A stretch of 64,000 nt of DNA from a virus. The stretch is from the UHGV virus genome UHGV-1558314. One strand, written 5' to 3'. Positions 20,663-63,004 of this stretch are shown piece by piece. The notes under the pieces are model-generated. The model ran no database searches and was not told the origin of the DNA. It saw only the letters and a list, made by a program, of their open reading frames with translations. Positions within the stretch are counted from its first letter, which is position 1. Each line of letters starts with the position of its first letter. Both the position numbers and the translations under genes were made by a program.

Positions 20663-20684
20663 AAGGTATCTTATTTAATTATTA

Positions 20685-20724
20685 TTGTACAACACACATT
20701 GCAATTTTGCAATATGTGTGTTAA
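20685..20724 (-). promoter_or_regulatory. Promoter box plus adjacent palindrome upstream of polymerase C-terminal gene
   Basis: ttgtacaaca at 20685-20694 followed by near-palindrome acacacattgcaa..ttgcaatatgtgtgtt. Confidence 0.35.
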
Positions 20725-22949: not shown

Positions 22950-22972
22950 TATATGTTGATATTGTACAACAT
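22950..22972 (-). promoter_or_regulatory. Recurrent promoter box (coding-strand ATGTTGTACAATATCAACATATAAT)
   Basis: Plus-strand tatatgttgatattgtacaacat; TATAAT-like element ~10 nt downstream of the box on the minus strand. Confidence 0.45.
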
Positions 22973-25689: not shown

Positions 25690-25700
25690 ATTATTATCTT

Positions 25701-44444: not shown

Positions 44445-44488
44445 TTGTTTGAAATTAGTGAAGAGCACTTGCAGGCAGCTCAATCTCC

Positions 44489-44509: not shown

Positions 44510-46387
44510 TCAAAAGCCTGCAAAGAAATCAGCATCAGCAGCATCTTGCTGCGATGTTGACTCTTGTTCAATCACAAATCGACTGTGCAACTTTTGATTA
44601 TGTTTTATGTATGGCATAATGCGCCGGATTGATTCATCAATGACAAACGTTTCACACCAGTCATTTGCATGTCGAATGCCTCGACCAACTGACTGTACGA
44701 AGCTTTGATAGCACTTATTGCGATACCAGCTTTCGTGATTTGCAGCTTTTGTTTTGACTACGATATCACCAAGTGATTGCCAAGGTAATTTTGCAACAAT
44801 TTGACATCTACAACGATTGTCTGGTAAGTCAACGCCTTCAGTAATGCTAAAGCCTACAAGTACGTAGTTAGTGCCATCAGCAAGCATTGCAAGTTTGTTT
44901 TGTTTATCTTCAGCATTGACATATGTCAGCATTCTGCGTTTGTGCTTGCTGTTATTGATGATATAGTTTGCAATGTCTCGTGTTGATGTGTGTATGATAC
45001 AGTTGCAGTCATGCGTGTCAAGAATGCTGTCAATCTTCTCAACAAGTCGAGGCATATTTGCCGCTTTATTCTTGTAGCTCAATGACAACGCAGGCCTGCA
45101 CAGTACAATGGGGGATTTGCTAAAATCCCAATCAGGCTCCATGTAGAATGCTACATAGTTTTTGATGCCATTGAGTGCAGCAAATGTGTCGATGTCACCA
45201 ATTGTCGCTGACATCCACAATTGTGCGTGTGTAGCATCACTGTGATGCACCAGCGTATTTGCAAGAAGCTCATCATTGACACATTTGAATTGCAAGCTGT
45301 TTGTTGCAGCGTCAAGTACTACAAGCATGTCACCAGGTGATTGTTCAGTTGCATCAAGCATTGTAATGATTGAATATGACAACGTATCACAGCTGGCAAC
45401 AAAGCGAATGAACGCTTTCTCAAATTGACCAAGTATTTTACCAGAATCCTGAAGTTCACTTAGCTTGTCATATGCAGTATGCAAAAAGTCTACAAGTTCT
45501 GACAACTGCTGTGCAAGCACTCTTGCTTCTGCTCGCATTGTTGCAATGTCATATTGTGTTGTTGCAAGCTTAATGATTGCTTTGACTTGTGCAAACACAT
45601 TATTGCGAAGTTCTACATATTTATTCTGATTTTCAAGAGTCATGATACCTGCAATCAGTGACTCGGCCTTTGTGCAATTCTGAATGAATCGAGGACCAAT
45701 TGACGTGTAAAGAAAGCCTGACAAAATGTCATCAATCTTATGGCACTCATCGAATATTGTCAATTCACGAGGCCCAAATAAGTTTTTGACGCAATTGACT
45801 TGTATCAACCAGTATGCATAATTGAGCACAGTGCAATTTGCTGCTGCAGCCTTTTGACGAGTCTGCAAATATGCGCATTTAGGTCCGCATGGCAATGCAA
45901 GAGCTTTCTTTGATGACAGCCCGTCTTGCTGGCATTTGCCCATACTGAATGGCAGCCCATTGACATGACAAATGTAGTTGTCTCGACCTTTGAGCATTAC
46001 ACAACTTCTGAATGCTGAAGTAGTTGTATCTGCTTTAGCATTGTTGTCGTACAAATATTGCTGAATGAACTTGTCGTACTGGTCTTGCAGCAGTTTATCA
46101 GAAGTCAGTACATACGACTTAAAGAACGTTGCACAAAACATTGCAACCACAGATTTCCCCGTTCCAGTCGCGCCCTGCAACACAACATTTTGCCCATTTG
46201 CAATGCAACGAATGATGTCAATAATTAGTTGACGTTGAGTTGCGTCAAAACGTGCTTGGTCCCATTTGCATGTCTTTGATTGTGCAAGATATGCTGAGAA
46301 TTTGTCGATATGTGCTACAATGAGCTCATCAAGCTCTTGCTGAGACTGTTCTTCTGTCTTATGTTCTGTTGGTGTTAGTCTACCCAT
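44510..46387 (-). CDS. DinG/XPD-family Fe-S helicase
   Basis: Walker A GATGTGKS, DECH box FDECHKID, four-Cys cluster between them, C-terminal VGRGIRHANDWCETFVIDE. Confidence 0.65.
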   Translation of the reverse strand: MGRLTPTEHKTEEQSQQELDELIVAHIDKFSAYLAQSKTCKWDQARFDATQRQLIIDIIRCIANGQNVVLQGATGTGKSVVAMFCATFFKSYVLTSDKLLQDQYDKFIQQYLYDNNAKADTTTSAFRSCVMLKGRDNYICHVNGLPFSMGKCQQDGLSSKKALALPCGPKCAYLQTRQKAAAANCTVLNYAYWLIQVNCVKNLFGPRELTIFDECHKIDDILSGFLYTSIGPRFIQNCTKAESLIAGIMTLENQNKYVELRNNVFAQVKAIIKLATTQYDIATMRAEARVLAQQLSELVDFLHTAYDKLSELQDSGKILGQFEKAFIRFVASCDTLSYSIITMLDATEQSPGDMLVVLDAATNSLQFKCVNDELLANTLVHHSDATHAQLWMSATIGDIDTFAALNGIKNYVAFYMEPDWDFSKSPIVLCRPALSLSYKNKAANMPRLVEKIDSILDTHDCNCIIHTSTRDIANYIINNSKHKRRMLTYVNAEDKQNKLAMLADGTNYVLVGFSITEGVDLPDNRCRCQIVAKLPWQSLGDIVVKTKAANHESWYRNKCYQSFVQSVGRGIRHANDWCETFVIDESIRRIMPYIKHNQKLHSRFVIEQESTSQQDAADADFFAGF

Positions 46388-46388
46388 T

Positions 46389-46422
46389 CTAAATGAGATT
46401 TAGATTATGTTCGAATATATGA
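46389..46422 (-). promoter_or_regulatory. Conserved 5' leader hairpin plus shared 16-mer upstream of helicase gene
   Basis: Inverted repeat TCTAAAT-gag-ATTTAGA abuts the ATG, identical to the leader of 49413..53339; tatgttcgaatatatg also occurs at 29648-29663. Confidence 0.4.
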
Positions 46423-46631: not shown

Positions 46632-46665
46632 AAGCAAGCAGACTACAATTGCAGTCTGCTTGCTT
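46632..46665 (-). terminator. Palindromic terminator-like element, copy 1
   Basis: aagcaagcagact acaattgc agtctgcttgctt; 27/28 identical to element at 62977-63004. Confidence 0.45.
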
Positions 46666-46687
46666 TGACATATGTGTAGCATATAGC

Positions 46688-47044
46688 TTATTTGCACATA
46701 AACAATGCAGCAAACCAATTCACTGGCTTGTCAATAAGCTGCTTCCACATAGTCCAATTGTACATGCCATGTGCAAACATTGTAAGAGCAAACAGCAGCA
46801 TACACATTGATACAAGCCAATCAGCAAATGGCATATTGCCCCATCGAATGTACTCGAAAATGCCAACTTTAACAAGCTGAGCAAACAAAATGAGCATTAC
46901 AGCCATTGCAAGTCGCGTCCAGACTACATATTGCTGAGTCTTATCTACAAACTTTGCAATCAATGCTGGCACAAAGTACATAATGTATGCAAACAGCAGC
47001 AAGCAAAAGCCTGCATACAGCAGATTAGAAATAAAAGCTCCCAT
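46688..47044 (-). CDS. Multi-pass membrane protein (118 aa)
   Basis: Four hydrophobic segments. Confidence 0.4.
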   Translation of the reverse strand: MGAFISNLLYAGFCLLLFAYIMYFVPALIAKFVDKTQQYVVWTRLAMAVMLILFAQLVKVGIFEYIRWGNMPFADWLVSMCMLLFALTMFAHGMYNWTMWKQLIDKPVNWFAALFMCK

Positions 47045-47047
47045 ATT

Positions 47048-47929
47048 CTATCGTTTGAATTTGATGAAGTGTTCAGCATCGAGGCCCTCAAATACATACG
47101 GGTCAAGAGTTTCCCAGAAGTTTGAGTATGTCGTTGTCTTTGCAATGCTTGTTTGCTTTGACAAGTTCATATTTGGGTAGCCAAGCATTGCATAGTGTCG
47201 CTCATATATGTGCATTGACGTCGCATTATGCACATATGCGCCAAGCTTAAGACCAAGTTCATTTGCGACAAGTTCTTGCAACAAAGTGAATGCAAACTGG
47301 TCGTTGCAAAAGCCCCAAATGACATCATTGCTTCGCATGTATGTTGTCAAGTACAGCTTATCACCACGAACATTGAAAACAAGATTCAATGTGCATGGCA
47401 TGTCTTTGCCAGTGTAGTTTGCATATTGCGGCTCATAAATGCTAATAACTGCTCGTCTTGTGCATTCATGATTTCGCAAACGTTCAATGACATCTGCAAT
47501 CTGCTTGTGCCAAATTGCGCCATACTGTGAATTGACATTGACACCATCGTCGCTGAATTGCTTCCAACGAGGCAAATAACGTTCAATGCATTCAACTGCA
47601 GGATTGGCTGTCATGTACCACGCAAATTCTGCAGCAGCATTGAGCTTTTTCCATGGTCGTACGTCAATCTTGATTTGCCGCTGTGAAGGGTCCTGAATAA
47701 CTACAGACACATTCAGCAATTCTTTTGTTCGAGTCACTGTTTGTGCATTGTTGCCCTTTGATTCTACAAACTCACCTCTACAATGAAGTTCATACAAAAT
47801 TGAGCGAAATGCTTCTGTTGCAGTGTTTTCAATGATTGTCGTCTGTTGATAACATAAATTTGACGACAATGCTTCAGCATCATTGTACTTTATGCTGTCA
47901 TTGTCATAAGGTGAATTTTTTGTGTGCAT
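47048..47929 (-). CDS. Deoxycytidylate hydroxymethylase-like protein (ThyA-family paralog)
   Basis: RRAVISIY, PCTLNLVF (catalytic Cys), MRSNDVIWGFCNDQFAF with Asp at the base-specifying position, MHIYERH; closely resembles recalled T4 gp42 (MRSNDVVFGFRNDYAW, LHVYSRH). Confidence 0.55.
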   Translation of the reverse strand: MHTKNSPYDNDSIKYNDAEALSSNLCYQQTTIIENTATEAFRSILYELHCRGEFVESKGNNAQTVTRTKELLNVSVVIQDPSQRQIKIDVRPWKKLNAAAEFAWYMTANPAVECIERYLPRWKQFSDDGVNVNSQYGAIWHKQIADVIERLRNHECTRRAVISIYEPQYANYTGKDMPCTLNLVFNVRGDKLYLTTYMRSNDVIWGFCNDQFAFTLLQELVANELGLKLGAYVHNATSMHIYERHYAMLGYPNMNLSKQTSIAKTTTYSNFWETLDPYVFEGLDAEHFIKFKR

Positions 47930-47953
47930 ATTTTGGGATGTTTGTTTTTGTTA

Positions 47954-49048
47954 TCATACAACGACGGTATCTCGTTTGCAATCTGTTCTGTCGAATATCG
48001 AGCAACAATATGATGCAGATTGCTCTTTGATTGCAATAGCTTCGTCATTGTCAAGTGATGAAATACCATCTATGTATGCTTTTGTATTGCCAGCGATGTC
48101 ATCATTTGTTAGCAATGCTGCACGACGTTCAGTACCAAAGAAGCCAAAGCACAATTGACGCTGCAATGCTTCACGAGAAATCTTGTCATCAAACTCGGAT
48201 TTCATGTGTTGCATAAATTCGACAATATCATCAATGTCGCATTGAGTAAAGTCAATGTACAATTTATGCATGTACTTGAATCGTTTGTAGTCTGTTGCAA
48301 GAATTTCTGGGTGCACAATGAACAACGTCTTTTTGCTGTCTATTGGATTTGCAATGACTGACGCTTGAACATAATCAACAAGCACGCCAGATTCACGAAG
48401 TTGCTCAACTGTTTTGCCAAATATATGCCCAAACGTGTCATCAAACCACTTCAAGTATACTTCGTTGTCTTCATCTTTTGATGCGCCAACAATGTAAATC
48501 TCATTGACTCCAAGCGCTTTAAGACGAGTGTCAGATAGCATCGTGTTCAATTGATGCTGCACATACAGCATTGGGCTGCTATGCAAAACTGTTTTGACAA
48601 TCTCACAAGCAATGTCCATATATGCATAGTCAAGCTTTGCAGATTTTGACACATACACTGCACGTTGCTGCAATGGCTCAATTGCTGAGCATGTGGTCAC
48701 AAAGTTGCCAACACATTCTGCTACTGCAATGTCATGCAAGTCATCTGCAATGTACACAATACTTGACAAGTCATCAAATGTTTGAACAAGTTGCTGAAGC
48801 TTTGTTTTGTAATTGCAGAGCATCAATGACTTGATGTTGCAATTGCCAAGCATTGTCTTGATGAGTCGTTGACCTGCTTCAGTGCTGTCACCAGAAATGA
48901 CATGCACATCGCAGTCAAACCAGTTCAACATGTCGATTGCATGCCGAACGCCATATTGCATTTGTTTTGCGAACTTGCCAGATTCATTGAACAGCATTTC
49001 ACCTGACATAATGCCGTCAAAGTCACATACGATTTGAAGTCTGTCCAT
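47954..49048 (-). CDS. HAD-superfamily (KdsC-like) phosphatase domain protein with uncharacterised C-terminal half
   Basis: N-terminal VCDFDGIMSGE ... VHVISGDS ... IADDLHD. Confidence 0.4.
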   Translation of the reverse strand: MDRLQIVCDFDGIMSGEMLFNESGKFAKQMQYGVRHAIDMLNWFDCDVHVISGDSTEAGQRLIKTMLGNCNIKSLMLCNYKTKLQQLVQTFDDLSSIVYIADDLHDIAVAECVGNFVTTCSAIEPLQQRAVYVSKSAKLDYAYMDIACEIVKTVLHSSPMLYVQHQLNTMLSDTRLKALGVNEIYIVGASKDEDNEVYLKWFDDTFGHIFGKTVEQLRESGVLVDYVQASVIANPIDSKKTLFIVHPEILATDYKRFKYMHKLYIDFTQCDIDDIVEFMQHMKSEFDDKISREALQRQLCFGFFGTERRAALLTNDDIAGNTKAYIDGISSLDNDEAIAIKEQSASYCCSIFDRTDCKRDTVVV

Positions 49049-49052
49049 GTTG

Positions 49053-49385
49053 CTACAATTTTGAAGTTAAGTCAATTCGAATTTTGTCTGCGTTGCTTTG
49101 GTCAACAAATCTGTCATCAAAGAAACATTCAACTACGACAAGCTTCTTTGAATTCACAAATTCGATTAGCGATTTTTGCATTGCATCAAGTTGCTTCATG
49201 CATTTACAAAAGCTGCTGTATGACATGATTTGCTTTGGTAACATATCAAATGCGTCTGCAATTCGCTGATGAGCAATCTTTTTTGATGTTGCAATAATGA
49301 CATCTGCTTTGTTGTCATTTGCATGATTGCCAAATATCGCAATATGGTAAACTTTCATTGTATGAGTGATTTTGCTGTTATACAT
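49053..49385 (-). CDS. Hypothetical protein (110 aa)
   Basis: ATG start verified. Confidence 0.3.
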   Translation of the reverse strand: MYNSKITHTMKVYHIAIFGNHANDNKADVIIATSKKIAHQRIADAFDMLPKQIMSYSSFCKCMKQLDAMQKSLIEFVNSKKLVVVECFFDDRFVDQSNADKIRIDLTSKL

Positions 49386-49412
49386 TTATGTTATATATGC
49401 ACATTGTGCCAG

Positions 49413-52400
49413 TTAACAAATTGATGACGTGCCATCAGTATTTGCTACAACTGTCAATGCACTATCAAACTCATCTTGTTGCAATACATGGTCAACTATG
49501 AGTGTTTTGCGAATTGCAGAAAGCTTGGTAAGCAACTGCATCAACACTTGCTGATAATTGATATTGTTGACATCATGCTCAGCGCCAACAATCTGCCCAT
49601 TGCTAAGCTTGCCACTGATTTCGTCAATGAGCAAGATGTTGCCCACTTTGTTTAAGCGTTGAGTCAAAATGAGATGCACGATTGCAAGACCTGCGAAAGT
49701 TCCTTCCATGCCAGACATTTGACTTACACTTCGAATTGACTTCGAGCCCATCAAGTCAATCATCTTCAACACATTGTTGTCATTGATGTCAAAGAACACT
49801 CGGTAGTTCAATGAATCCAGCAAATCATTGAGCTGTGCATTCAGTGATGTTGCAATTGCTGCAAAGACATATGAAACTAAGCCTCGTTTGCTTGTGCACT
49901 GCTTATATGCATTGTACACCAAGTTTGCAATGTTCCACTTTTTCGAAGCTTGCAAATCTTTCTTGAGAGCTTCAATTCGCACATTGTTTGCTGATAAGTC
50001 TGCTTGCATTGTTGCAATTTCTGCATTGATGCTTAGCAGTTTTGAGTTCGCTTCAGTTTCATGCTGCTTAGCATCATCAATGTCGACTTGCAATGCAGCA
50101 TTTGTTGTAATATGCTGCTGAGTTTGCTGTGCATGTTCAAGTGCAAATGCTGCAGCAGTCTTATCAATCTCAAGTTGTTTAAGCGCAGACTCATATGTCG
50201 CTTTCTTATCATACTCTGCTTGAGCAATTTCAAGTTCAGCATTTATTGCAGCCAGTTCTGATTCTACTGTAGATTTTGATTGCAATACATCTTGCTTTGC
50301 TTGTTCAGCTTTACGTTTGATGTCTGCAAGTTGATTTGTGATATCTGCAATTTGCATTTTGACTGCTTCGACTTCAAGCAATGTTGCTGCAGTAGCCATT
50401 GGTTGTGCAATGAATGCATCTAAGTCTCTTTGCGCATTGACTACAGTTCTCTGCAAATCATTGAGCTTTTCTGCATGCATGTCATATGCTGCTTTGTGTG
50501 CTGGATTCAGTGCAGCAATTATTGCATTTGAATCTGTAACATCTATGATTGCTGCTTGCAGTTGCTCAATTTCATACTTCAAATTGCCAATTTTGACAAC
50601 ATTCTCATTGAATTGCTCTGTCTTTTGCGCACATTCTTGACGCAACTTAGCAAGCTCAGTTGACAACCACAGCTTGTATGCTTGTCCTGTGCCAGATGTC
50701 AAGTCATTTGTACATACAGGGCATTTGTCGTTTTCAAGTTGCTTTTGCTTGTCTATAACATTGTCGATGTTTGTTTTTGCAGCAGATATTTCTGTTCTAA
50801 GTGCATTTTGAACAGTGTTGATGTCTTCAATTTGCTTTTGCAAAGCATCTATTTTTGCCCGAGTGTTTGCATTGTACGACTTGCCAAGATTTATCAGCAC
50901 AGAATCAATGTGCTGCTTTGCTGCATCATATGCAAGCTTTGATTCATCAAGCTTTGTTCTGTACAATGACTCTGCATGCGCAACTTCTTTCTGCACTTTT
51001 GCAGATAGCTCATTCTGTTTTGTAAGCAGCTCAGCATATGTATTGTGCAGCTGTGAGCCAGATGCTATGACATTTGTGTATGCTGTATTAGCTTCATTGT
51101 CAATATTAGTGAGTTGCTGCTCAATCTGTGCTTTTGCTGTTTGCAACTTAGACATATCTTGCAATGCAAGTGCAGCAATGTCAAGCTCAACTTTGTGAAT
51201 CTTTGCAATGATGCCATCGATATTTGCTGTTGCATCTTCTATAGTTAAGATGTCTGCAGGAATTTGATGTAGTTTCTTTGAGAGCTCTTCTACTTTTGCA
51301 CGAGCTTTTGTAAGCTTCGCGGACCACTCTTTTTGATTATCTTGTCGTAACTGCAAAGAGTAATTGAGTTCATTGCAAGTTGTATTGAGAGACTCAAGTT
51401 CTGCTTTTATTGCAACATCAGTCAATGCGGGCTTACTAAGGCCATCAAACAATGCAGCCTTTGCAGCATCATTAGAATTGCCAAGCTGTACAAATGTATT
51501 GATGCCAAGAGTATCAAGTAGCCAGTCATTCAATGAATTTGAGTCCATTGCAATGATTTGGTCAAGTAGTGTCTGATTGATACAAACATATCGCGACAAT
51601 TCCCAGATAGAGCCAAAGATTGCATATAGCGTGTCTTTGATTTCATGCTGCGGCACTACGTAGTCATCTGACAATCTTACAAGCTGAACAGTCTCATTGA
51701 CTGCTGACACGTTATCTCGCCATGAGCCATCTGCATTTATTCGAGAACCTCGTTTGAATTTGCGTTCAAGTGTTCGAATCAATTTGTAGTGAACATTTTG
51801 ACCTGCTACTACATGCACAAAGACACAAGAAGCTTCAAGCTTATCATATGACTCATTGTCAATCAATTTGTCATTGAAGTATGTCAAAGCGTTCTGCTTT
51901 GTTGCTGCAGAAGACTGTTCAGCGTCAATAAAGCCAGTCAGCAGCCATTTGATAAGTCTGAAGATTGTAGTCTTGCCATTGCCATTGTTGCCTCTAACTT
52001 GTGTAAGCTGTGCAAGATTGTCAAAGCTGACATCAACATCTTTCAATGCCATGAACTGATTTGCTTTAACATTTTGAATGACATATTTTGCAACTTCAGT
52101 GTCAAAAGACAATTTATCAATTTGTTCATCAATCAATGACTTGAACATGTCAACAAACTGCTGAGCATCTTCAGTAGCAACTATGGCATTGCGTTCAATG
52201 TATGCATTGACCCAGTCAAGTGCAGCGTCTTTAAGCCATTCAGCAGTTTGAACCTTTTGCAGCAAATTGTCGCCATTTGCGTCTACAGCATTGATTGAAT
52301 CAATGACAGCAGAATCATACAGAATGTCAATTGCAGCAACAACATATGAACTTACAAGATTCTGTGCAATGCGCTCAACAATACCAGACAGTTCGGGCTT

Positions 52401-53339
52401 TGTGACCTTTGACTTGATTTTGATTTTATTGATGCGGCCAGGGTTGATGAGTGCAATCTTGTCTGTTTTGACATCATTATCAATTGTGATTGTATGATAA
52501 TGCACAAGCTGCTCAAGTGGATGCCACTCTACCACAATTCGCTTGTTGTCAATATCGATGTCAAGCAAGTTGTAGCCATGTTCTGCAGTACCATGCTGTA
52601 TTGCAGTGTCATTCAACAAATAGTCGCCTTCACCAAAATCTCTGACAATTGGCGAGCCGCAATATGTTAATGTCTTATCACCAGCAACCCATATTGCATG
52701 CTTATGAATGTCACCCATTGCAACAAAGTTGCTATTAAATTGCATTGCATCTATACGACTGTCATTGTCACCACGAACAATACAATCATCAAAGTTGACA
52801 CAATTCTTTACAGGGTCATGGAACAGCTCAATGACACACATTGATGACAATGCTGCAATCTGCGATTCATCAAGTGATGCCCAAGGCGAATATGTGCCAC
52901 CAGACCACTTCTCATTTTGAGCCCATACTGCAGCAGCAAAACCAGGTGCAAGCAGTTCAACTCTTGAACTGTTGATATACTTGATTCGCTTGTCATCAAT
53001 TGCAGTTACAAGCTTGTCAATGCTATCTGTCCACTGCATTTGTGAACCATCACCAGCATCAAATGTGTTATCACGTTGCTTCAAATCATGATTGCCAGCA
53101 GTAATGACAATTTGAAGCTTGTCATTGACTTCAAGCATGCCTTTGAGCAGCTTAACAAACAGCGACTCTTCAAGTGAATTGCTATTCCAATGCTCAAACA
53201 CGTCGCCGACAATGAATACAAACTCAACTGACTTTGCTTTGTCAATTAGTTGTTTGTTGATGTGCTCATATTCTACGAAACGTCGTAAATGACCTTGTCG
53301 AACATTATATTGAATGTCTGCTATGTGAAGTGCTTTCAT
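49413..53339 (-). CDS. Fused Mre11/SbcD-like nuclease and Rad50/SbcC-like ATPase (1308 aa)
   Basis: N-terminal phosphoesterase motifs (LHIADIQ, IVGDVFEH, TAGNHD) resemble recalled T4 gp47; then Walker A GNNGNGKTT, long coiled coil, zinc hook CPVCTNDL, C-terminal LLIDEISGKL. Confidence 0.65.
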   Translation of the reverse strand: MKALHIADIQYNVRQGHLRRFVEYEHINKQLIDKAKSVEFVFIVGDVFEHWNSNSLEESLFVKLLKGMLEVNDKLQIVITAGNHDLKQRDNTFDAGDGSQMQWTDSIDKLVTAIDDKRIKYINSSRVELLAPGFAAAVWAQNEKWSGGTYSPWASLDESQIAALSSMCVIELFHDPVKNCVNFDDCIVRGDNDSRIDAMQFNSNFVAMGDIHKHAIWVAGDKTLTYCGSPIVRDFGEGDYLLNDTAIQHGTAEHGYNLLDIDIDNKRIVVEWHPLEQLVHYHTITIDNDVKTDKIALINPGRINKIKIKSKVTKPELSGIVERIAQNLVSSYVVAAIDILYDSAVIDSINAVDANGDNLLQKVQTAEWLKDAALDWVNAYIERNAIVATEDAQQFVDMFKSLIDEQIDKLSFDTEVAKYVIQNVKANQFMALKDVDVSFDNLAQLTQVRGNNGNGKTTIFRLIKWLLTGFIDAEQSSAATKQNALTYFNDKLIDNESYDKLEASCVFVHVVAGQNVHYKLIRTLERKFKRGSRINADGSWRDNVSAVNETVQLVRLSDDYVVPQHEIKDTLYAIFGSIWELSRYVCINQTLLDQIIAMDSNSLNDWLLDTLGINTFVQLGNSNDAAKAALFDGLSKPALTDVAIKAELESLNTTCNELNYSLQLRQDNQKEWSAKLTKARAKVEELSKKLHQIPADILTIEDATANIDGIIAKIHKVELDIAALALQDMSKLQTAKAQIEQQLTNIDNEANTAYTNVIASGSQLHNTYAELLTKQNELSAKVQKEVAHAESLYRTKLDESKLAYDAAKQHIDSVLINLGKSYNANTRAKIDALQKQIEDINTVQNALRTEISAAKTNIDNVIDKQKQLENDKCPVCTNDLTSGTGQAYKLWLSTELAKLRQECAQKTEQFNENVVKIGNLKYEIEQLQAAIIDVTDSNAIIAALNPAHKAAYDMHAEKLNDLQRTVVNAQRDLDAFIAQPMATAATLLEVEAVKMQIADITNQLADIKRKAEQAKQDVLQSKSTVESELAAINAELEIAQAEYDKKATYESALKQLEIDKTAAAFALEHAQQTQQHITTNAALQVDIDDAKQHETEANSKLLSINAEIATMQADLSANNVRIEALKKDLQASKKWNIANLVYNAYKQCTSKRGLVSYVFAAIATSLNAQLNDLLDSLNYRVFFDINDNNVLKMIDLMGSKSIRSVSQMSGMEGTFAGLAIVHLILTQRLNKVGNILLIDEISGKLSNGQIVGAEHDVNNINYQQVLMQLLTKLSAIRKTLIVDHVLQQDEFDSALTVVANTDGTSSIC

Positions 53340-53341
53340 AT

Positions 53342-53383
53342 TCTAAATGAGATTTAGATTATATGTTGATATTGTACAACATG
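53342..53383 (-). promoter_or_regulatory. Promoter box plus conserved leader hairpin upstream of Mre11-Rad50 fusion gene
   Basis: Minus strand GTTGTACAATATCAACATATAATCTAAATCTCATTTAGAAT then ATG. Confidence 0.45.
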
Positions 53384-53418
53384 CAAAATGCACTTGCATT
53401 TTGATACAACGTATGTCA

Positions 53419-53766
53419 TTATTTTGCAAGCATTTTGCTGATTGCATCTATCACAGTTTCACTGAGCAAGTAGTAGACAACGCTTATCAGCAATGATATC
53501 AGTACTGCAGCTGTGATAAATTGCAACGCATTCACAATTGCACGCACAAATGTTATCTGTGTGTTGTATGCAAGCACTATGCAGCATAGCACAATAATGA
53601 CACACCAGACTACAATTGCATATGCAGGCATCAATGAATTTGTCCATATGCAGTACAATACAGTAGTTAGCATCAAAAATGCTATTGCTCTGATGACTGA
53701 CACAATGATGTCTATGTAGAGCTTCATTACACGTAAATGAACTCTTGGCTTATGCGGTTTCATCAT
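53419..53766 (-). CDS. Small multi-pass membrane protein
   Basis: Start at ATG 53764-53766 overlapping upstream stop (ATGA); three hydrophobic helices. Confidence 0.35.
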   Translation of the reverse strand: MMKPHKPRVHLRVMKLYIDIIVSVIRAIAFLMLTTVLYCIWTNSLMPAYAIVVWCVIIVLCCIVLAYNTQITFVRAIVNALQFITAAVLISLLISVVYYLLSETVIDAISKMLAK

Positions 53767-54995
53767 GACTTTATGTACAATTCTGCAAGTTGTCTGGTGT
53801 ACAATCGTGGATTGTGATATGCTTTCCAATATGCAGTAGACTTTATTGCAGCAAGAATCTCATCATAATGTTTGACTGCTTTTGCTACAACTTCATCAAG
53901 TACATGCAAATCTTCTACACTAACAAGCAGCCATTTTTCTACAATGTCAATGAATTCTTGATTGCAATTAAAGCCATATTTGTAGTTGCAAGTGTCAAGT
54001 ACAAGTGGGATGCAGTCATTTGTCAGTGCTTCAAAAAATCTACGAAGACTGAAACAATTCTCATCATATGATGGAATGCTTAATGTAAACTTGGCAGTCT
54101 TGATGAGTTGCAAATACTCTTCGTATGGAATCAGAGGACCATTGTGCTTCCACTGATTGTTATGTCGTCTTGTTGTGTACTTGAACAAAAACTTTGAACT
54201 GTCAAGCTCACAAAGATGGTCCATGCGTAAAATGTAGTTATAGCGGTCTCTTCTATCAGGCCAACTGTCAGTCATTGCAAACACAAAGTCTCTTTGCTTG
54301 TCACATTTTGCTGACATACCTCTATGCTGACACATGCAGTACCAATATTGCTGCGATGGACTGAACTCGAACTTTGAGTGATGCTCACTGCCATCTTTGC
54401 ATTGTTGAACGTAAATATTGTCAGGCACAAAGTGAAAGTAGAAATGTCGAATTTGCAAGCCGTCAATGTAGTCAAGCTTATGCTGCAATGGGTCCTCACA
54501 GAAATTGTAACACTGAATGCGTTTTGCTGCAGCATACTCAGCAACTATGAATGTGCACACCCATTGCAATGCGATGTCTTCACTCTTCAAAAAGTCAACA
54601 AGTGGCTCATTTGGATGCGCTTTGCATTCATTGAACATTTTGTACCACTTGCATTGCTCCATGTCATACTTGGAGACTGTATTGCCATTAAAAAATGACA
54701 CAGTATCAATTTTGAATGCCTCAAGTTGTTTATGCACAATGTCGATTGCTTGTGCATATGTGACAGTCTCATCAGACATTATTTGTGCAAACTTGATTGG
54801 ATGCGCATGCAAATTTGCAATTGTGTCTGCTGACATTTTGCGCTGTGTATGATAATCGACATACAAAAACTGACACTTGTCTGTAAGCAATTCAAGCATT
54901 GCTACAGATTTCCATCGAATTGCTTGAAAGAAATTGAAGTGCGCAGTTTGAAAAATGAGATGCGTAGGCTTGTCAGAATGAGTCAAAGTTTGCAT
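53763..54995 (-). CDS. Glycosyltransferase-like protein (GT-B-type C-terminal motif), paralog B'
   Basis: IPSYDENCFSLRRFFEALTNDCIPLV resembles GT-B donor-binding motif; paralogous to 58026..59582 (shared EDPLQHKL, PSQQYWY). Track start is TTG; ATG at 54993-54995 used. Confidence 0.45.
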   Translation of the reverse strand: MQTLTHSDKPTHLIFQTAHFNFFQAIRWKSVAMLELLTDKCQFLYVDYHTQRKMSADTIANLHAHPIKFAQIMSDETVTYAQAIDIVHKQLEAFKIDTVSFFNGNTVSKYDMEQCKWYKMFNECKAHPNEPLVDFLKSEDIALQWVCTFIVAEYAAAKRIQCYNFCEDPLQHKLDYIDGLQIRHFYFHFVPDNIYVQQCKDGSEHHSKFEFSPSQQYWYCMCQHRGMSAKCDKQRDFVFAMTDSWPDRRDRYNYILRMDHLCELDSSKFLFKYTTRRHNNQWKHNGPLIPYEEYLQLIKTAKFTLSIPSYDENCFSLRRFFEALTNDCIPLVLDTCNYKYGFNCNQEFIDIVEKWLLVSVEDLHVLDEVVAKAVKHYDEILAAIKSTAYWKAYHNPRLYTRQLAELYIKS

Positions 54996-56158
54996 GGACA
55001 AATGTCGCAGTTATGTTGATGTTTGTGTTTATTTATGAAGTCATATGTCACTGCAAAAAAGTGCTTTGCAATGTCATATCGAGTTTTCAAATATGCTGCT
55101 TGTCGTTCACAAAATGCTGCATAAATATCTGGGTGTTGTTTGAATGCTGCAATGCGTTGCTGTACTTGTTCTGCAGAATGCACATATGACACTTTGCTCA
55201 AATATACATCATCTGCAAATAATCGTTTGTCTTTGTCAACTGCGCAATCAACAAAAGTTGCAATTCGTGCAACAATTGCTTCACCGACACGATTTGGTAT
55301 TAGCCCATATTGCTCATATTGCTGTTCGCCGATAGCAATGTGTGCTGCTGCATATGACATTGCATATGGCACACTATAAAATGGCACACTAAAATCAAAT
55401 GAACAATTTGACTGCAGCAATTGTGTTTGTGCATCAGACAATCTACTTGTCAAGTTGCCTGTATATTTGTGCTCACCAAGAAAACTTGAGCGACAGCCTG
55501 AATCTACATAGTATCGAATGACTTTGTTTATGCGACTGTCAGATAGCATATGCCAATCTCTTGTAGCATATATCAAGTCTACTGTTTTTGCGCCAATATG
55601 ACGAGGCTCTATCGCAACATTGCTGTATGTTGGCAGCATAAACAATGGCAGCCATTTGACATTGTTGAACACTGAATGCTCATTTGACAAATTCATGCAC
55701 TGGCTAAGTTCAAGTACTGGCTCATCATACACGCCATGTAGCTCAACTCTGCCTGCATGCACAAAGTTGACACGCTTAAATGGAAATCGCATATCAGTGC
55801 AAACTGTCATTCTTGCTGCAATAGACATTCGCCACATAGCATGCAGCTTAACAACTGCTTCTGCTTGAGGTCGAGGCAACATATTTAGCAAATCAATCCA
55901 GCCGCCCCACAAAATCCAAACATCATTTGAACAGATGTTGAATTGCAAACTCAATATGTCTTCTACTGTTGTAGCAATAATGTCATGCCCATTGATGCTT
56001 GCAAGGTGTTTTCGTTGATTTGCAATAATAATGACTTGACTGAATGGAGACTCTGGAAATGACACAAGCGCTTTTGCAAACAACACGGGTTCTTGCGACA
56101 CCAAGTTGTTTGAGTATGGGTCGATTATGCAATCAAGCTTGTGTATGAAGAGTCTCAT
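54983..56158 (-). CDS. Hypothetical protein (391 aa), paralog A' of 59579..60745
   Basis: Shared N-terminus MRLFIHKLD vs MSKLFILKFD and TDMRFPF vs TDLRFDF; sits immediately upstream of a GT-like gene. Confidence 0.4.
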   Translation of the reverse strand: MRLFIHKLDCIIDPYSNNLVSQEPVLFAKALVSFPESPFSQVIIIANQRKHLASINGHDIIATTVEDILSLQFNICSNDVWILWGGWIDLLNMLPRPQAEAVVKLHAMWRMSIAARMTVCTDMRFPFKRVNFVHAGRVELHGVYDEPVLELSQCMNLSNEHSVFNNVKWLPLFMLPTYSNVAIEPRHIGAKTVDLIYATRDWHMLSDSRINKVIRYYVDSGCRSSFLGEHKYTGNLTSRLSDAQTQLLQSNCSFDFSVPFYSVPYAMSYAAAHIAIGEQQYEQYGLIPNRVGEAIVARIATFVDCAVDKDKRLFADDVYLSKVSYVHSAEQVQQRIAAFKQHPDIYAAFCERQAAYLKTRYDIAKHFFAVTYDFINKHKHQHNCDICPCKL

Positions 56159-56889
56159 TTTGCAGATGATTCAAAAAATTTGTAGACATCGCAGTTAGCA
56201 ATGTGGTCATTCCAAGCATCTTCAGAGTCTGCAACAAAGCCACAATGACAGCGTTTTGGCTGCCAAACTGGTTCAACTACTGCAGGCATTGCTTCTTCAA
56301 TAGTGTTTGCAGGTTCATTATCTGCTGGCAATACTTCAACGTCTTCAACTTGTGCTGCATCTTGTTGTGCACGCTGCTCAATGACATTGCCCTCAAAGTC
56401 AAACTGAATGCCAGCTTGTTCTGCTTTTGTACGATTATTACGAGCTACGAACAAATACGCAAAGATGAATTCGACAAGCGCTATGGCAAGTGACTTCAGT
56501 GCATTGACAAGAAGCATGATGCCTGTTGATAAATGGCCGTCAAAGCTCAAAAACACGAACACACATGTAAAGCATGACATAAACACTGCAATCAGTGGAA
56601 TGTTCTTGTATTTTGGCAACAAATCAGAGTTGACTGATGTAAGCAACACAACGAATTGATAACCTATTGCAAGCCAATAGTCGCCAAACACTGCATAGAT
56701 ATGCGTAGTGATGCCAATAAGAAATGTGATAGTCACAATCATAATGAGCAACACACTTGTCAGAAAGTCTGCAATAGAATTGCTGAGCTTGTCATACCAG
56801 TGTTTGTTGACAATTGACGTGTTGGCTACGCGCACTTTACTAAGTGCATCTATGCCGCTTTTGATATTTGATTGTGCTTTCATACACAT
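56155..56889 (-). CDS. Multi-pass membrane protein with C-terminal Cys/His-rich soluble domain (244 aa)
   Basis: Several hydrophobic helices; C-terminal CHCGF...HIANCD; ATGA overlap with next gene. Confidence 0.4.
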   Translation of the reverse strand: MCMKAQSNIKSGIDALSKVRVANTSIVNKHWYDKLSNSIADFLTSVLLIMIVTITFLIGITTHIYAVFGDYWLAIGYQFVVLLTSVNSDLLPKYKNIPLIAVFMSCFTCVFVFLSFDGHLSTGIMLLVNALKSLAIALVEFIFAYLFVARNNRTKAEQAGIQFDFEGNVIEQRAQQDAAQVEDVEVLPADNEPANTIEEAMPAVVEPVWQPKRCHCGFVADSEDAWNDHIANCDVYKFFESSAK

Positions 56890-57136
56890 ATAACGTTATA
56901 TCATATCTACACACAAAGCAAATGCTACTGCAAGTGCAGCCATAATTGCATATACGACTATCGATGCAGTATAATCTGATTCAGGATTCCACTTATCAGG
57001 TGTGTTAAGCTTGTGATACTTGTCTCGTCTCATCTTGAGTCAAAAAATGATGGCTGCTGCTACATTTTGTGAAATCATGTGCAGCAGCCATCTGGCAGGT
57101 TTCTTGCTTTGTAAAGCTTGGATAGAGGATGGATTT

Positions 57137-57195: not shown

Positions 57196-57411
57196 TCATT
57201 TTGCACAGTCTGATGCAATTAAATCTTTGTCAAAGCATTCATCTATAATGTCTTCAATAAGATACGCTTCGACATTGTTAAGCTTCAAGATATCTACGAG
57301 TTTTGCTTTGATATCGCAAGCTAATGCAGATTCGACTGTATGCAATATGACTGATGATACGACATGCTTGTCTGTCATCATTTGTAATTGCTGTGGTGTT
57401 ACTCTACTCAT
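57196..57411 (-). CDS. Small acidic hypothetical protein (71 aa)
   Basis: ATG start overlaps Tmk-like stop (ATGA). Confidence 0.3.
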   Translation of the reverse strand: MSRVTPQQLQMMTDKHVVSSVILHTVESALACDIKAKLVDILKLNNVEAYLIEDIIDECFDKDLIASDCAK

Positions 57412-57980
57412 GCGCCAAGTTCAGCTAAGCATTTCAACACATTGTCTTGCAGACTTGCATTGTTGTCAATTTCGACAATATGCAATGGTGAGTTCTTTCG
57501 CCACTCATCATATGCAGCAATCATTTCATTGCGTTTGCTGACATCAATGTTGACATCACCGCAAAAATTATCGACAAAATCTGGCACAACATCACGCTTG
57601 CATAAGAACACTACGTGCGGCAATGTTGCAAGCTTCTTTTCATATGCTTCAAAGAATGCTTGATGCTTATCAGTGTGCAGCTCTTTGTAAAGCGTTGTGT
57701 TGAAGATTTGATGCGTGATGAATGAACGGTCACACAAAAACGTTGCTTTGCCAAAGCCTTGAGAGTCATTTCCAATGAACTCTAAGAAGAAGCGCCAATC
57801 ATAAAAGAACGCTTCATTGAGGTCCCAAGGTTCGGGCATTGGGTCATCACCTGACTCATGCTGCTGCCACCAAGAACGAGATGTTCGTTTGCAATTGATA
57901 AACCATGGGCGCCACTTCATCAATTCATTGATGAGTGTTGTTTTGCCTGAAGCTTCTACACCTTCAAATATCGCTATCAT
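57408..57980 (-). CDS. Thymidylate-kinase-like P-loop nucleoside monophosphate kinase
   Basis: P-loop FEGVEASGKTT and CDRSFITHQ (DR-Y/H-like). Confidence 0.55.
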   Translation of the reverse strand: MIAIFEGVEASGKTTLINELMKWRPWFINCKRTSRSWWQQHESGDDPMPEPWDLNEAFFYDWRFFLEFIGNDSQGFGKATFLCDRSFITHQIFNTTLYKELHTDKHQAFFEAYEKKLATLPHVVFLCKRDVVPDFVDNFCGDVNIDVSKRNEMIAAYDEWRKNSPLHIVEIDNNASLQDNVLKCLAELGA

Positions 57981-58025
57981 TGTGTATTATGTTTGATTTT
58001 TGATTACAGTACAACGTAGTTATGC

Positions 58026-62846: not shown

Positions 62847-62975
62847 ATATATGAATATATTGTACAACATGTATTGAGCTTTTGCACAACATATGTTGTT
62901 AAAATATCATCATTGTACAACATAAAGCGCATATTTGCACGTTGTGTTGCTAAAAATATTGTTATTGTACACAAA
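62847..62975 (-). promoter_or_regulatory. Promoter region with three copies of the TTGTACA(A) box
   Basis: atatattgtacaacatg (62857-62872), cattgtacaacat (62911-62923), ttattgtacac (62962-62972). Confidence 0.4.
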
Positions 62976-62976
62976 A

Positions 62977-63004
62977 CAAGCAGACTGCAATTGCAGTCTG
63001 CTTG
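62977..63004 (-). terminator. Palindromic terminator-like element, copy 2
   Basis: Perfect 28-bp palindrome caagcagactgcaa|ttgcagtctgcttg downstream of 63052..63597. Confidence 0.45.

What the first reader, a model, noticed from the sequence alone, without database searches (positions are those of the whole stretch)
46688..56889. Small multi-pass membrane proteins interspersed among DNA-modification genes
46688..47044, 53419..53766 and 56155..56889 are predicted membrane proteins embedded among, and translationally coupled to, soluble nucleotide/glycosyl enzymes. They could anchor the enzymes, import precursors, or mediate superinfection exclusion.
Basis: inference. Interest (0 to 1): 0.35.

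Follow-up and report, generated by a model that had tools for sequence, protein, structure and literature searches.

The report
Membrane proteins beside phage DNA-sugar enzymes
Three real small membrane-protein genes sit among a gut phage's DNA-modification genes, much as in phage T4; two look like fast-evolving envelope or exclusion proteins, and the third is a conserved, uncharacterised phage-only family with a zinc-finger tail.

Summary
ORFs 46688-47044 (c1, 118 aa), 53419-53766 (c2, 115 aa) and 56155-56889 (c3, 244 aa) are the only multi-pass membrane ORFs in the 64-kb window. They are tightly packed with a dCMP-hydroxymethylase-type enzyme, a T4 beta-glucosyltransferase homolog, a GT47-like transferase and an SbcCD fusion. 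Their positions are conserved in human-gut metagenome relatives.

The layout has a precedent in T4: a-gt, 47.1 (predicted membrane protein), gp47/46; and imm.1, imm, gene 42, b-gt.

c1 and c2 evolve very fast (15-23% identity where the enzymes keep 36-52%). They end their transcription units and match no known family. I read them as Imm/47.1-like early proteins acting on the envelope, probably in superinfection exclusion. This is inferred from position only.

c3 is different. Its four-helix core is 68-76% identical across the same relatives and it is found only in phages. It carries an acidic linker and a C2HC zinc finger. It stays next to glucosyltransferase-like genes even in Chryseobacterium phages. 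I lean towards a membrane partner or tether for the glycosylation enzymes, but a role unrelated to the enzymes or a role in lysis is not excluded.

Precursor import has no support. Interest is modest, and c3 is the part worth an experiment.

The parts
46688..47044 (-). c1: 118-aa membrane protein with 3 TM helices plus a C-terminal amphipathic helix, probably N-out/C-in. It is the last gene of its transcription unit.
   Evidence: ORF; hydropathy; AF2 helices. Its start is 3 nt after the TS-like stop. Relatives are 69-97% identical and always lie directly after the TS-like gene. A positional 3-TM equivalent in L018 is 23% identical. dN/dS is about 0.15.
46635..46666 (-). Terminator-like hairpin (16-bp stem) followed by UUUUGUG, directly after c1.
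   Evidence: RNA fold -30.6 kcal/mol, z = -5.5. A second copy lies at 62977-63004.
47048..47929 (-). TS-family enzyme (293 aa) with a dCMP hydroxymethylase-type active-site signature; counterpart of T4 gene 42.
   Evidence: Pfam Thymidylat_synt 3.7e-24. The alignment shows N177D and L143D with D169 retained; criteria from PMC13326640.
47954..49048 (-). 364-aa protein with an N-terminal KdsC-like HAD sugar-phosphate phosphatase domain.
   Evidence: NCBIfam TIGR01670 1.9e-9. The MA9V-1 homolog is annotated as KDO-8-P phosphatase.
49413..53339 (-). SbcD-SbcC fusion nuclease (1308 aa); counterpart of T4 gp47 + gp46.
   Evidence: Pfam Metallophos + AAA_23; conserved in relatives.
53340..53380 (-). 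Promoter-like motif GTTGTACAATAT (53369-53380) plus a 22-nt leader repeat (53340-53361) between c2 and the SbcCD start.
   Evidence: The motif occurs 14 times against 1.7 expected, 13 of them on the coding strand, and none in the structural-gene part 1-16 kb. The leader repeat is found twice exactly.
53419..53766 (-). c2: 115-aa membrane protein with a basic N-terminus and 3 TM helices, probably N-in/C-out. It is the last gene of its transcription unit.
   Evidence: ORF; hydropathy; ATGA overlap with the 412-aa gene. Close relatives are 88-97% identical. Positional 3-TM equivalents in L003, L004, L006, L017 and L018 are 15-22% identical and share only a C-terminal pattern.
53763..55001 (-). 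412-aa GT-B/GT47-like glycosyltransferase; paralog of the 518-aa protein at 58026-59582.
   Evidence: Weak Pfam Exostosin_GT47 and Glyco_trans_1_2 matches; 9.7e-6 for the paralog; conserved in relatives.
54983..56158 (-). 391-aa homolog of T4 beta-glucosyltransferase; paralog of the 388-aa protein at 59579-60745.
   Evidence: PHROG beta-glucosyltransferase 1.4e-7; hhalign against T4 b-gt 96.3%, E 1.5e-9.
56155..56889 (-). c3: 244-aa protein with a cytoplasmic N-terminus (KHWYD motif), a 4-helix membrane core (about 36-150), an acidic linker (about 160-210) and a C2HC zinc finger (C214, C216, H229, C233).
   Evidence: Family alignments; AF2. The core is 68-76% identical to relatives. Substitutions are 9 syn / 0 nonsyn. 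Only 24 clusters match at E <= 0.001 among 1.84 billion proteins, about 22 of them through the membrane core. The stop overlaps the 391-aa start.
56896..57033 (-). 45-aa single-pass membrane ORF directly upstream of c3; not conserved in distant relatives.
   Evidence: 99% nucleotide identity in L014. No equivalent in L003, L005 or L018.
57408..57980 (-). 190-aa P-loop nucleotide kinase, preceded by a promoter-like motif at 58004-58015.
   Evidence: PHROG thymidylate kinase 8.9e-6; homolog of the MA9V-1 thymidylate kinase; motif.

Best explanation
These are real inner-membrane protein genes that travel with the phage's T4-type replication and 5-hydroxymethylcytosine-glycosylation gene block. 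They appear to be transcribed with it, because the same promoter-like motif precedes the polymerase, SbcCD and kinase genes. They are two kinds of thing.

(1) c1 and c2 are short three-helix proteins that evolve very fast and sit at the 3' ends of their transcription units. T4 keeps imm/imm.1 next to gene 42, and 47.1 between a-gt and gene 47, in comparable places. Most likely c1 and c2 act on the envelope of the infected cell and not on DNA chemistry. The best-documented job for such a protein is T4 Imm's: it sits in the inner membrane and blocks genome entry by a second phage by binding that phage's tape-measure protein. This step is inferred from position, size and evolutionary rate only.

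(2) c3 is a separate, slowly evolving family found only in phages. It has a four-helix membrane core with conserved polar residues (S45, H63, N87, E140) and a cytoplasmic tail, here an acidic linker plus one C2HC zinc finger. It stays beside beta-glucosyltransferase-like genes in distant phages. I lean towards c3 being a membrane-embedded partner that holds the glycosyltransferase pair, and possibly the DNA, at the inner membrane. This is the weakest step, inferred from gene linkage and domain make-up.
For: Shown:
- Membrane character and real coding status.
- These are the only multi-pass ORFs in the window.
- Gene junctions: ATGA overlaps and a 3-nt gap.
- Conserved order c3, bGT-like, GT47-like, 3-TM ORF, SbcCD, small ORF, HAD, TS-like, 3-TM ORF in gut-metagenome relatives.
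- T4 has membrane ORFs at comparable places: a-gt/47.1/47 and imm.1/imm/42/b-gt.
- Identity to relatives is 15-23% for c1 and c2, 36-52% for the enzymes, and 68-76% for the c3 core.
- c1 is followed by a strong terminator hairpin. c2 is followed by the promoter-like motif.
- That motif is enriched 8-fold, lies on the coding strand, and is absent from the head-gene region.
- The c3 family is phage-only: nothing in one genome for each of 185,579 species, and only MA9V-1/-2 among GenBank phages.
- c3 is flanked by glucosyltransferase-like genes in MA9V-1/-2 and in L026, and lies about 1 kb from a GT47-like gene in the P0053 contig.
- The zinc-finger residues are invariant in 20 clade members. The same CxCG..F..H..C unit occurs in tandem arrays in other proteins.

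From the literature: Imm is a 9.3-kDa membrane protein that binds the tape-measure protein and blocks genome translocation (bioRxiv 10.64898/2026.03.06.709160).
Against: - There is no sequence or profile similarity of c1 or c2 to Imm, Imm.1 or 47.1. The analogy is positional only.
- c1 lies downstream of the gene-42 counterpart, whereas imm lies upstream of gene 42 in T4.
- MA9V-1 has no membrane ORF at the c1 or c2 positions.
- Two distant c3 homologs have no glycosyltransferase in the short stretches recovered: L024 sits near baseplate genes and L025 near a primase-like gene.
- The conserved part of c3 is the membrane core. The tail, which would be the part to contact soluble enzymes, is variable and lacks the zinc finger in MA9V-1.
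- One c3 homolog is overlapped by a CHAP/PG_binding_1 gene, and a few members give sub-threshold holin PHROG hits.
- T4's own DNA glucosyltransferases need no membrane partner (my background knowledge).
- Expression timing is inferred from a motif, not measured.
Confidence: 0.4

Rival explanations
1. None of the three has anything to do with the neighbouring enzymes. They are independent accessory or core membrane proteins (exclusion, host takeover, envelope remodelling), and their position reflects only inherited gene order in a packed early region. c3's neighbourhood is a historical accident.
For: - c3 homologs occur in non-glycosyltransferase contexts.
- The c3 tail is variable while the membrane core is conserved.
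- c1 and c2 sit at operon ends, where new phage genes tend to accumulate.
- T4's imm and 47.1 sit beside modification genes with no known functional link to them.
Against: c3 remains flanked by glucosyltransferase-like genes in MA9V-1/-2 and L026, although the rest of the block is rearranged there. The c3 stop overlaps the bGT-like start.
Confidence: 0.3
2. One or more are lysis proteins (holin or antiholin). c3 is the main candidate, with several TM helices and a charged cytoplasmic tail. c1 is a second candidate, with a lambda-S-like N-out/C-in 3-TM topology.
For: - In the 138-kb contig carrying P0053, a CHAP + PG_binding_1 gene overlaps the start of the c3 homolog.
- There are scattered sub-threshold hits to holin PHROGs: phrog_3428 at 0.054 for c3, and phrog_1527 at 0.003 for two members.
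- The family is phage-only.
Against: - No peptidoglycan hydrolase was identified near any of the three in the window.
- The ORFs after the P0053 homolog have no TM or lipobox features expected of spanins.
- The genes lie in units behind the same motif as the polymerase and SbcCD genes, not with structural genes.
- The c3 core is better conserved than the enzymes, which is unusual for holins.
- The holin hits are below any threshold and sit amid many other spurious hits.
Confidence: 0.13
3. They import or flip sugar or nucleotide precursors for DNA modification, as small oligomeric transporters in the manner of SemiSWEET, SMR/ArnEF or GtrA.
For: The size and helix count (3-4 TM, about 115-125 residues of membrane core) resemble those families. 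c3 has conserved polar residues inside its helices.
Against: - No match to MtN3/SWEET, SMR, GtrA or any transporter model, even at E up to 10.
- No structural match.
- Described phage DNA-glycosylation pathways use cytoplasmic sugar phosphates and NDP-sugars (PMC13326640).
- c1 and c2 evolve too fast for a substrate-specific transporter.
Confidence: 0.05
4. The ORFs are not genes; they are hydrophobic reading frames that arose by chance.
For: c1 and c2 have no homologs beyond close relatives and match no family.
Against: They are exact, tightly packed ORFs on the coding strand. Equivalents are retained in divergent relatives. Substitutions are mostly synonymous.
Confidence: 0.02

Closest known systems
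T4 Imm (superinfection immunity protein, 83 aa) and Imm.1
   Same: Imm is a small inner-membrane protein encoded in the early replication and modification region, directly beside the dCMP hydroxymethylase gene. Such proteins are expected to evolve fast because Imm binds the incoming phage's tape-measure protein. c1 has a similar size class and helical membrane character.
   Different: There is no detectable sequence or profile similarity. c1 lies downstream, not upstream, of the hydroxymethylase gene. c1 has 3 TM helices plus an amphipathic helix, whereas my hydropathy scan finds 2 TM segments in Imm. Function is untested.
T4 gp47.1 (46-aa predicted membrane protein)
   Same: It lies between a DNA glucosyltransferase gene (a-gt) and the SbcD homolog gp47, and it overlaps the gp47 start. 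c2 lies between the GT47-like transferase and the SbcCD fusion, and it overlaps the transferase stop.
   Different: gp47.1 has 46 aa and 2 TM, against 115 aa and 3 TM for c2. There is no similarity. The function of 47.1 is itself unknown.
Holins (for example lambda S105, class I)
   Same: Holins are small phage membrane proteins with 1-4 TM helices and charged cytoplasmic tails. c1's predicted N-out/C-in 3-TM topology resembles class I. One c3 homolog abuts a peptidoglycan hydrolase gene.
   Different: There is no adjacent endolysin in the window. The genes are co-located with early/middle-type genes. The c3 core is unusually conserved. Only sub-threshold HMM hits were found.
Small 4-TM lipid-sugar flippases (GtrA, ArnE/ArnF, SMR-like)
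   Same: They have a four-helix core of about 120 residues with N and C termini inside, and their genes lie next to glycosyltransferase genes.
   Different: No HMM match. Those systems modify envelope glycans with GT-A or GT-C partners. Here the partner is a T4 beta-glucosyltransferase homolog that acts on DNA.
DUF2637-type phage membrane proteins (actinophages)
   Same: They are four-helix membrane proteins of phages. A weak BFVD fold match was found (prob 0.47).
   Different: The match is not significant (E 0.3), it rests on a low-confidence model, and there is no Pfam hit.

Membership tests
T4 Imm superinfection-immunity family | Sequence or profile homology to T4 Imm | tested here: not met
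   blastp found nothing better than E 0.87. hhalign probability was 2.6% for the c1 family and 0.2% for the c2 family.
T4 Imm superinfection-immunity family | Small helical inner-membrane protein encoded beside the dCMP hydroxymethylase gene in the early region | tested here: met
   c1 has 3 TM helices and starts 3 nt after the hydroxymethylase-type gene. In T4 the layout is imm.1, imm, 42. c1 is on the opposite side of the enzyme gene.
T4 Imm superinfection-immunity family | Blocks genome entry of a superinfecting phage by binding its tape-measure protein | not testable with these tools
   This needs plating-efficiency and interaction assays. The mechanism is described in bioRxiv 10.64898/2026.03.06.709160.
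T4 gp47.1-like ORFs | Small membrane ORF between a DNA glycosyltransferase gene and the SbcD/gp47 gene, coupled to a neighbour | tested here: met
   c2 has an ATGA overlap with the 412-aa gene and is followed by SbcCD. T4 47.1 overlaps gp47. The same position is filled by a 3-TM ORF in L003, L004, L006, L017 and L018.
T4 gp47.1-like ORFs | Sequence similarity to gp47.1 | tested here: not met
   The best blastp E-value was 0.28 over 15 residues.
Holins | Gene adjacent to the endolysin gene or lysis cassette | tested here: inconclusive
   No hydrolase was identified next to c1, c2 or c3 in the window. One distant c3 homolog (P0053) is overlapped by a CHAP + PG_binding_1 gene, but no spanin-like ORFs follow it.
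Holins | Match to a holin family model | tested here: not met
   No PHROG hit at 0.01. Only sub-threshold hits were seen (0.054 for c3; 0.003 for two distant members), among many spurious ones.
Holins | Late expression and timed membrane permeabilisation | not testable with these tools
   The only indirect clue is that the genes lie behind the promoter-like motif shared with replication genes.
Small sugar or lipid-sugar transporters (SemiSWEET/MtN3, SMR/ArnEF, GtrA) | Match to the family HMM | tested here: not met
   Pfam at E up to 10 lists none of these for c1, c2, c3 or their positional equivalents. NCBIfam gives none.
C2HC/C2H2-type zinc finger (c3 tail) | Conserved Cys/Cys/His/Cys ligands with a beta-hairpin-plus-helix fold | tested here: met
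   C214, C216, H229 and C233 are invariant in 20 sequences. AF2 gives strands 212-221 and helix 223-232 with pLDDT about 70. The same unit is repeated in arrays in P0066 and P0069. Metal binding was not tested, and there is no Pfam hit.
T4 beta-glucosyltransferase family (context gene 54983-56158) | Profile homology to T4 b-gt | tested here: met
   hhalign 96.3%, E 1.5e-9 over 225 columns; PHROG 7922 at 1.4e-7. Substrate and sugar are untested.
dCMP hydroxymethylase (context gene 47048-47929) | TS fold with N177D (dCMP specificity) and an acidic residue at L143, D169 retained (E. coli ThyA numbering) | tested here: met
The window's canonical TS serves as an internal control. Criteria are from PMC13326640. 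Activity is untested.

The most novel reading that the evidence does not exclude
c3 defines a phage-only family of membrane-anchored zinc-finger proteins that places DNA hypermodification at the inner membrane. It would tether newly made hydroxymethylcytosine DNA and the beta-glucosyltransferase-like enzymes there. A variant reading is that its conserved membrane core binds a host envelope enzyme, diverting sugar-nucleotide flux from cell-wall synthesis to DNA glycosylation.
Probability: 0.12. Interest if true: 0.65.

Novelty: new variant of a known kind. Interest (0 to 1): 0.35.

Why it matters
Small membrane proteins in phage early regions are mostly unannotated, yet the few that have been studied (T4 Imm, Spackle) control whether a second phage can enter the cell.

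This work shows that the T4 pattern extends to distant gut phages. In T4, membrane ORFs are wedged between the DNA-glycosylation and recombination genes, and the same is true here. That gives concrete candidates for exclusion proteins in phages of Bacteroidota-like hosts.

The c3 family is the more interesting part. It is the best-conserved protein of the whole modification block and is restricted to phages. It combines a polar four-helix membrane core with a nucleic-acid-type zinc finger. If c3 really works with the DNA glycosyltransferases, it would be the first membrane component of a phage DNA-hypermodification pathway. If it does not, the finding is ordinary phage genome architecture.

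Tried and rejected
Searches that found nothing useful:
- Megablast of the 12-kb region against GenBank phages gave no match.
- tblastn of c1 and c2 against phages gave no match.
- Pfam, PHROGs, NCBIfam and PADLOC gave nothing above threshold for c1, c2 or c3. The Tetraspanin hit at 0.0019 (18 bits against a cut-off of 32) was rejected as compositional.
- The AF2 models of c3 and c1 are low confidence. Foldseek against PDB and BFVD found nothing with E <= 0.001.
- IMG/VR scans with c1, the TS-like gene, SbcCD and c3 profiles returned essentially only the window's own 174.6-kb contig.
- A GTDB genome scan for c3 found nothing.
- An alignment of the full c3 family was too divergent to use as a search query.

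Comparisons that were negative:
- hhalign of c1 against c2 showed they are not paralogs.
- Comparisons against T4 Imm were negative.

Ideas dropped:
- By eye, the ORF at 43800-44483 looked like a lytic transglycosylase, which would have made c1 a holin candidate. Pfam, PHROGs and PDB searches did not support this.
- The generic sigma-70 promoter and terminator scan was not above shuffled expectation, so I did not use it.
- The genes upstream of c3 in relatives (443-615 aa, one TM each) gave no family hits.
- PDB sequence searches with the 391- and 412-aa proteins found nothing.


Full report
**What is there.**

All genes between 44 and 63 kb lie on the minus strand. Read in the direction of transcription, the order is:
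- a 388-aa and a 518-aa protein (59579-60745, 58026-59582)
- a P-loop kinase (57408-57980)
- two or three tiny ORFs, including a 45-aa single-pass membrane ORF (56896-57033)
- c3 (56155-56889)
- a 391-aa protein, then a 412-aa protein
- c2 (53419-53766)
- a 1308-aa SbcD-SbcC fusion
- a 110-aa ORF
- a 364-aa protein with a KdsC-like HAD phosphatase domain
- a 293-aa thymidylate-synthase-family protein
- c1 (46688-47044)
- a hairpin
- a DinG/XPD-type helicase

**Check of the observation.**

Kyte-Doolittle scanning finds three hydrophobic 19-mers in each of c1, c2 and c3. AlphaFold2 adds a polar second helix in c3, giving four helices (31-68, 71-90, 97-115, 124-158). For c1 it gives three long helices and a C-terminal amphipathic helix. 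Both models are low confidence, with pLDDT about 58.

On a Hessa-type scale, with values recalled from memory, the candidates' best segments score -4.1 to +1.0. The best segment in any neighbouring enzyme scores +5.4 to +12.2.

- The c2 start overlaps the stop of the 412-aa gene (ATGA).
- The c3 stop overlaps the start of the 391-aa gene (ATGA).
- The c1 start lies 3 nt after the stop of the TS-like gene.

In a greedy ORF map of the whole window, these three are the only ORFs with three or more predicted membrane segments. Against a 97%-identical IMG/VR contig, substitutions are 9 synonymous / 0 non-synonymous in c3, 5/3 in c1 and 7/5 in c2. This fits real genes, with c1 and c2 under looser constraint than the enzymes, whose dN/dS is 0.03-0.11.

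**The context really is DNA modification.**

- The 293-aa protein has Asp at the positions equivalent to E. coli ThyA N177 and L143 and keeps D169. According to PMC13326640, this marks dCMP hydroxymethylases and not 5-hydroxycytosine synthases or true thymidylate synthases.
- A canonical thymidylate synthase is encoded separately at 42764-43822.
- The 391/388 family aligns to T4 beta-glucosyltransferase with hhalign probability 96.3% and E 1.5e-9 over 225 columns.
- The 412/518 family is weakly GT47-like and unrelated to b-gt.

The phage therefore most likely makes 5-hydroxymethylcytosine DNA and glycosylates it. This is inferred from signatures and homology; the sugar is unknown.

**Relatives and synteny.**

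No GenBank phage is close at the DNA level. The nearest isolates are Chryseobacterium phages MA9V-1 and MA9V-2 (213-219 kb), which carry a c3 homolog with 31-36% identity.

Metagenome contigs up to 179 kb carry c3 homologs at 47-95% identity. One of these records is titled as a human gut metagenome assembly. In every such contig examined the order is c3, bGT-like, GT47-like, SbcCD, small ORF, HAD, TS-like.
- An uncalled or short ORF with three membrane segments fills the c2 position in L003, L004, L006, L017 and L018. In L003 its ATG overlaps the transferase stop, as in the window.
- In L018 a 120-aa three-segment ORF follows the TS-like gene at the c1 position. It aligns collinearly with c1 at 21-24% identity.
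- A 69%-identical c1 relative also follows the TS-like gene directly.

**Two classes of protein.**

Identity between the window and three relatives is as follows:

| Protein | Identity |
|---|---|
| bGT-like | 36-45% |
| GT47-like | 45-51% |
| SbcCD | 38-39% |
| TS-like | 47-52% |
| c1 | 23% |
| c2 | 15-22% |
| c3, whole protein | 49-59% |
| c3, residues 30-160 | 68-76% |

So c1 and c2 are the fastest-evolving genes of the block, and the c3 membrane core is the slowest.

c1 and c2 are not paralogs of each other. Neither has homologs beyond close relatives.

**Transcription units.**

Right after c1 comes a 16-bp-stem hairpin followed by a U-run (-30.6 kcal/mol, z -5.5). A second copy lies near 63 kb.

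Right after c2 comes the motif GTTGTACAATAT, then a 22-nt leader that is repeated exactly before the helicase start.

That motif occurs 14 times against 1.7 expected, and 13 copies are on the coding strand. Mostly it lies 20-42 nt upstream of start codons, including those of the DNA polymerase halves, SbcCD, the kinase and the 460-aa gene (my reading of the coordinates). It is absent from the first 16 kb, which hold the head protease and portal genes.

I infer that c1, c2 and c3 are co-transcribed with replication and nucleotide-metabolism genes, and that c1 and c2 are the last genes of their units. This is an inference from sequence; timing was not measured.

**The T4 precedent.**

In the T4 record (AF158101), reading with transcription, the order is:
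- a-gt, then 47.1 ("hypothetical predicted membrane protein", overlapping the gp47 start), then gp47, then gp46
- gp43, then imm.1 ("predicted membrane protein"), then imm ("immunity to superinfection membrane protein"), then gene 42 (dCMP hydroxymethylase), then b-gt

Small membrane ORFs wedged among hydroxymethylase, glucosyltransferase and SbcCD-type genes are therefore an established feature of T4-type genomes. c2 occupies the 47.1 position. c1 sits beside the gene-42 counterpart, though on its other side.

Imm is a 9.3-kDa membrane protein that binds the tape-measure protein of the incoming phage and blocks genome translocation (bioRxiv 10.64898/2026.03.06.709160).

No sequence or profile similarity links c1 or c2 to Imm, Imm.1 or 47.1. 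They work like these proteins at most by analogy and are not family members.

**c3 in detail.**

The family alignment shows four regions:
- a conserved cytoplasmic N-terminal motif (H30-W31-Y32)
- a four-helix core
- a variable acidic linker
- a terminal CxCG-x2-F-x8-H-x3-C unit, whose four ligand residues are invariant in 20 clade members

Across 21 divergent members, S45, G59 and F68 are invariant, and H63, N87, L91, P92, E140 and F147 are nearly so.

AF2 predicts a beta-hairpin plus helix for the terminal unit. The same unit occurs in tandem arrays in two long non-phage proteins. This fits a classical nucleic-acid-type zinc finger, by inference.

A profile search of 1.84 billion representative proteins finds only 24 clusters at E <= 0.001. 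Their tails vary: acidic, coiled-coil, C2H2-like, or absent. No cellular genome among 185,579 species representatives carries a homolog detectable by the scan.

Context of distant members:
- MA9V-1 and MA9V-2: c3 lies between two glucosyltransferase-like genes, although SbcCD and the TS-like gene are far away.
- L026: GT-like, c3, then the start of a bGT-like gene.
- The P0053 contig: a CHAP + PG_binding_1 gene overlaps the c3 start, and a GT47-like gene lies 1 kb downstream.
- L024 and L025: no transferase in the stretches recovered.

The link to transferases is therefore recurrent but not universal.

**Interpretation.**

For c1 and c2, four things fit a T4-Imm-type early envelope protein, probably involved in excluding other phages: very fast divergence, conserved position, operon-end location and lack of any enzyme or transporter signature. 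They fit poorly with a stoichiometric partner of conserved enzymes.

For c3, the slow evolution of a polar membrane core, the phage-only distribution and the persistent neighbourhood point to a defined membrane function tied to the glycosyltransferases. I lean towards a tether or organiser. The conserved part is the membrane core and not the cytoplasmic tail. One homolog abuts a peptidoglycan hydrolase gene, and a few sub-threshold holin hits exist. For these reasons I give the composite explanation only 0.4.

Precursor import is disfavoured. No transporter family matches, and known phage DNA-glycosylation pathways use cytoplasmic sugar phosphates.

**Novelty and verdict.**

The pattern itself is known from T4. 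The particular proteins belong to no described family, and c3 is an uncharacterised phage-specific family with an unusual domain combination.

I rate the finding as a new variant of a known kind, with interest 0.35. The most novel reading not excluded is that c3 makes DNA hypermodification a membrane-organised process (probability about 0.12).

Noticed in passing
window 46386-46407 and 53340-53361 (minus strand): An exact 22-nt repeat, TAATCTAAATCTCATTTAGAAT, ends at the start codons of the helicase and the SbcCD fusion. It contains a perfect 7-bp inverted repeat (TCTAAAT-CTC-ATTTAGA). It could be a shared translational operator or leader. It was not seen upstream of the same genes in L018, L003 or L005.
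   Followed up: partly
window, 14 sites from 16248 to 62868 (e.g. 20682-20693, 22959-22970, 53369-53380, 58004-58015, 62857-62868): The motif GTTGTACAATAT is enriched 8-fold (14 found against 1.7 expected). Thirteen copies are on the coding strand, usually 20-42 nt upstream of start codons of replication and nucleotide-metabolism genes. It is absent from the head-gene region 1-16 kb. It is probably a phage promoter of one temporal class.
   Followed up: partly
window 46635-46666 and 62977-63004: Two copies of a palindromic 16-bp-stem hairpin (core CAGACTGCAATTGYAGTCTGCTTG) followed by a T-run. These look like repeated bidirectional terminator elements.
   Followed up: partly
window 24184-25725 and 19370-20662 (minus strand): Family-B DNA polymerase appears split into two ORFs about 3.5 kb apart with several genes between. 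The first matches PHROG 262 positions 111-490 and the second matches positions 505-842.
   Followed up: no
window 49413-53339: SbcD (metallophosphoesterase) and SbcC (AAA_23) are fused into one 1308-aa protein. The same fusion occurs in all relatives and in MA9V-1 gp070. T4 has two separate genes, 47 and 46.
   Followed up: partly
window 42764-43822 and 47048-47929: There are two thymidylate-synthase-family genes 3 kb apart. One is canonical (Pfam 4e-76, N177 kept). The other has the dCMP hydroxymethylase signature (N177D, L143D, D169 kept). A dCMP deaminase gene lies at 60717-61442.
   Followed up: yes
window 59579-60745 / 58026-59582 and 54983-56158 / 53763-55001: There are two paralogous pairs of a beta-glucosyltransferase homolog followed by a GT47-like transferase, each pair with overlapping stop and start codons. 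This suggests several successive sugar transfers, or heteromeric enzymes, on hydroxymethylcytosine DNA.
   Followed up: partly
window 47954-49048: A KdsC-like HAD sugar-phosphate phosphatase domain, fused to an unknown 200-aa C-terminal part, sits directly upstream of the hydroxymethylase-type gene. Arabinosylating phages have the same neighbourhood: DLP3 gp80 (TS homolog) and gp81 (HAD phosphatase). MA9V-1 is reported to carry KpsF-like and GlmU-like genes. The sugar may therefore not be glucose.
   Followed up: no
window 43800-44483: A 227-aa ORF has an N-terminal hydrophobic segment and an E-S...G-x-x-Q-L stretch that resembles a lytic-transglycosylase motif by eye. Pfam, PHROGs and PDB sequence searches gave nothing, and no homolog occurs at this position in L016 or L018.
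   Followed up: partly
JGI 3300072015 contig (138.6 kb) carrying P0053; partial copy L021 2-1014: In a distant relative, a CHAP + PG_binding_1 peptidoglycan hydrolase gene overlaps the start of the c3 homolog. That homolog ends in a C2H2-like zinc finger.
   Followed up: partly
window 1612-5562: A 1316-aa ORF has only its first 240 residues matching a head maturation protease. The remaining roughly 1000 residues are unassigned.
   Followed up: no
L003 12127-12339 and L017 5312-5524; L001 6524-6667: Additional tiny single-pass membrane ORFs sit inside or beside the transferase pair. Relatives have a 70-aa ORF between the bGT-like and GT47-like genes, and MA9V-1 has a 47-aa ORF upstream of gp055. 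They echo the 45-aa ORF upstream of c3 in the window.
   Followed up: no
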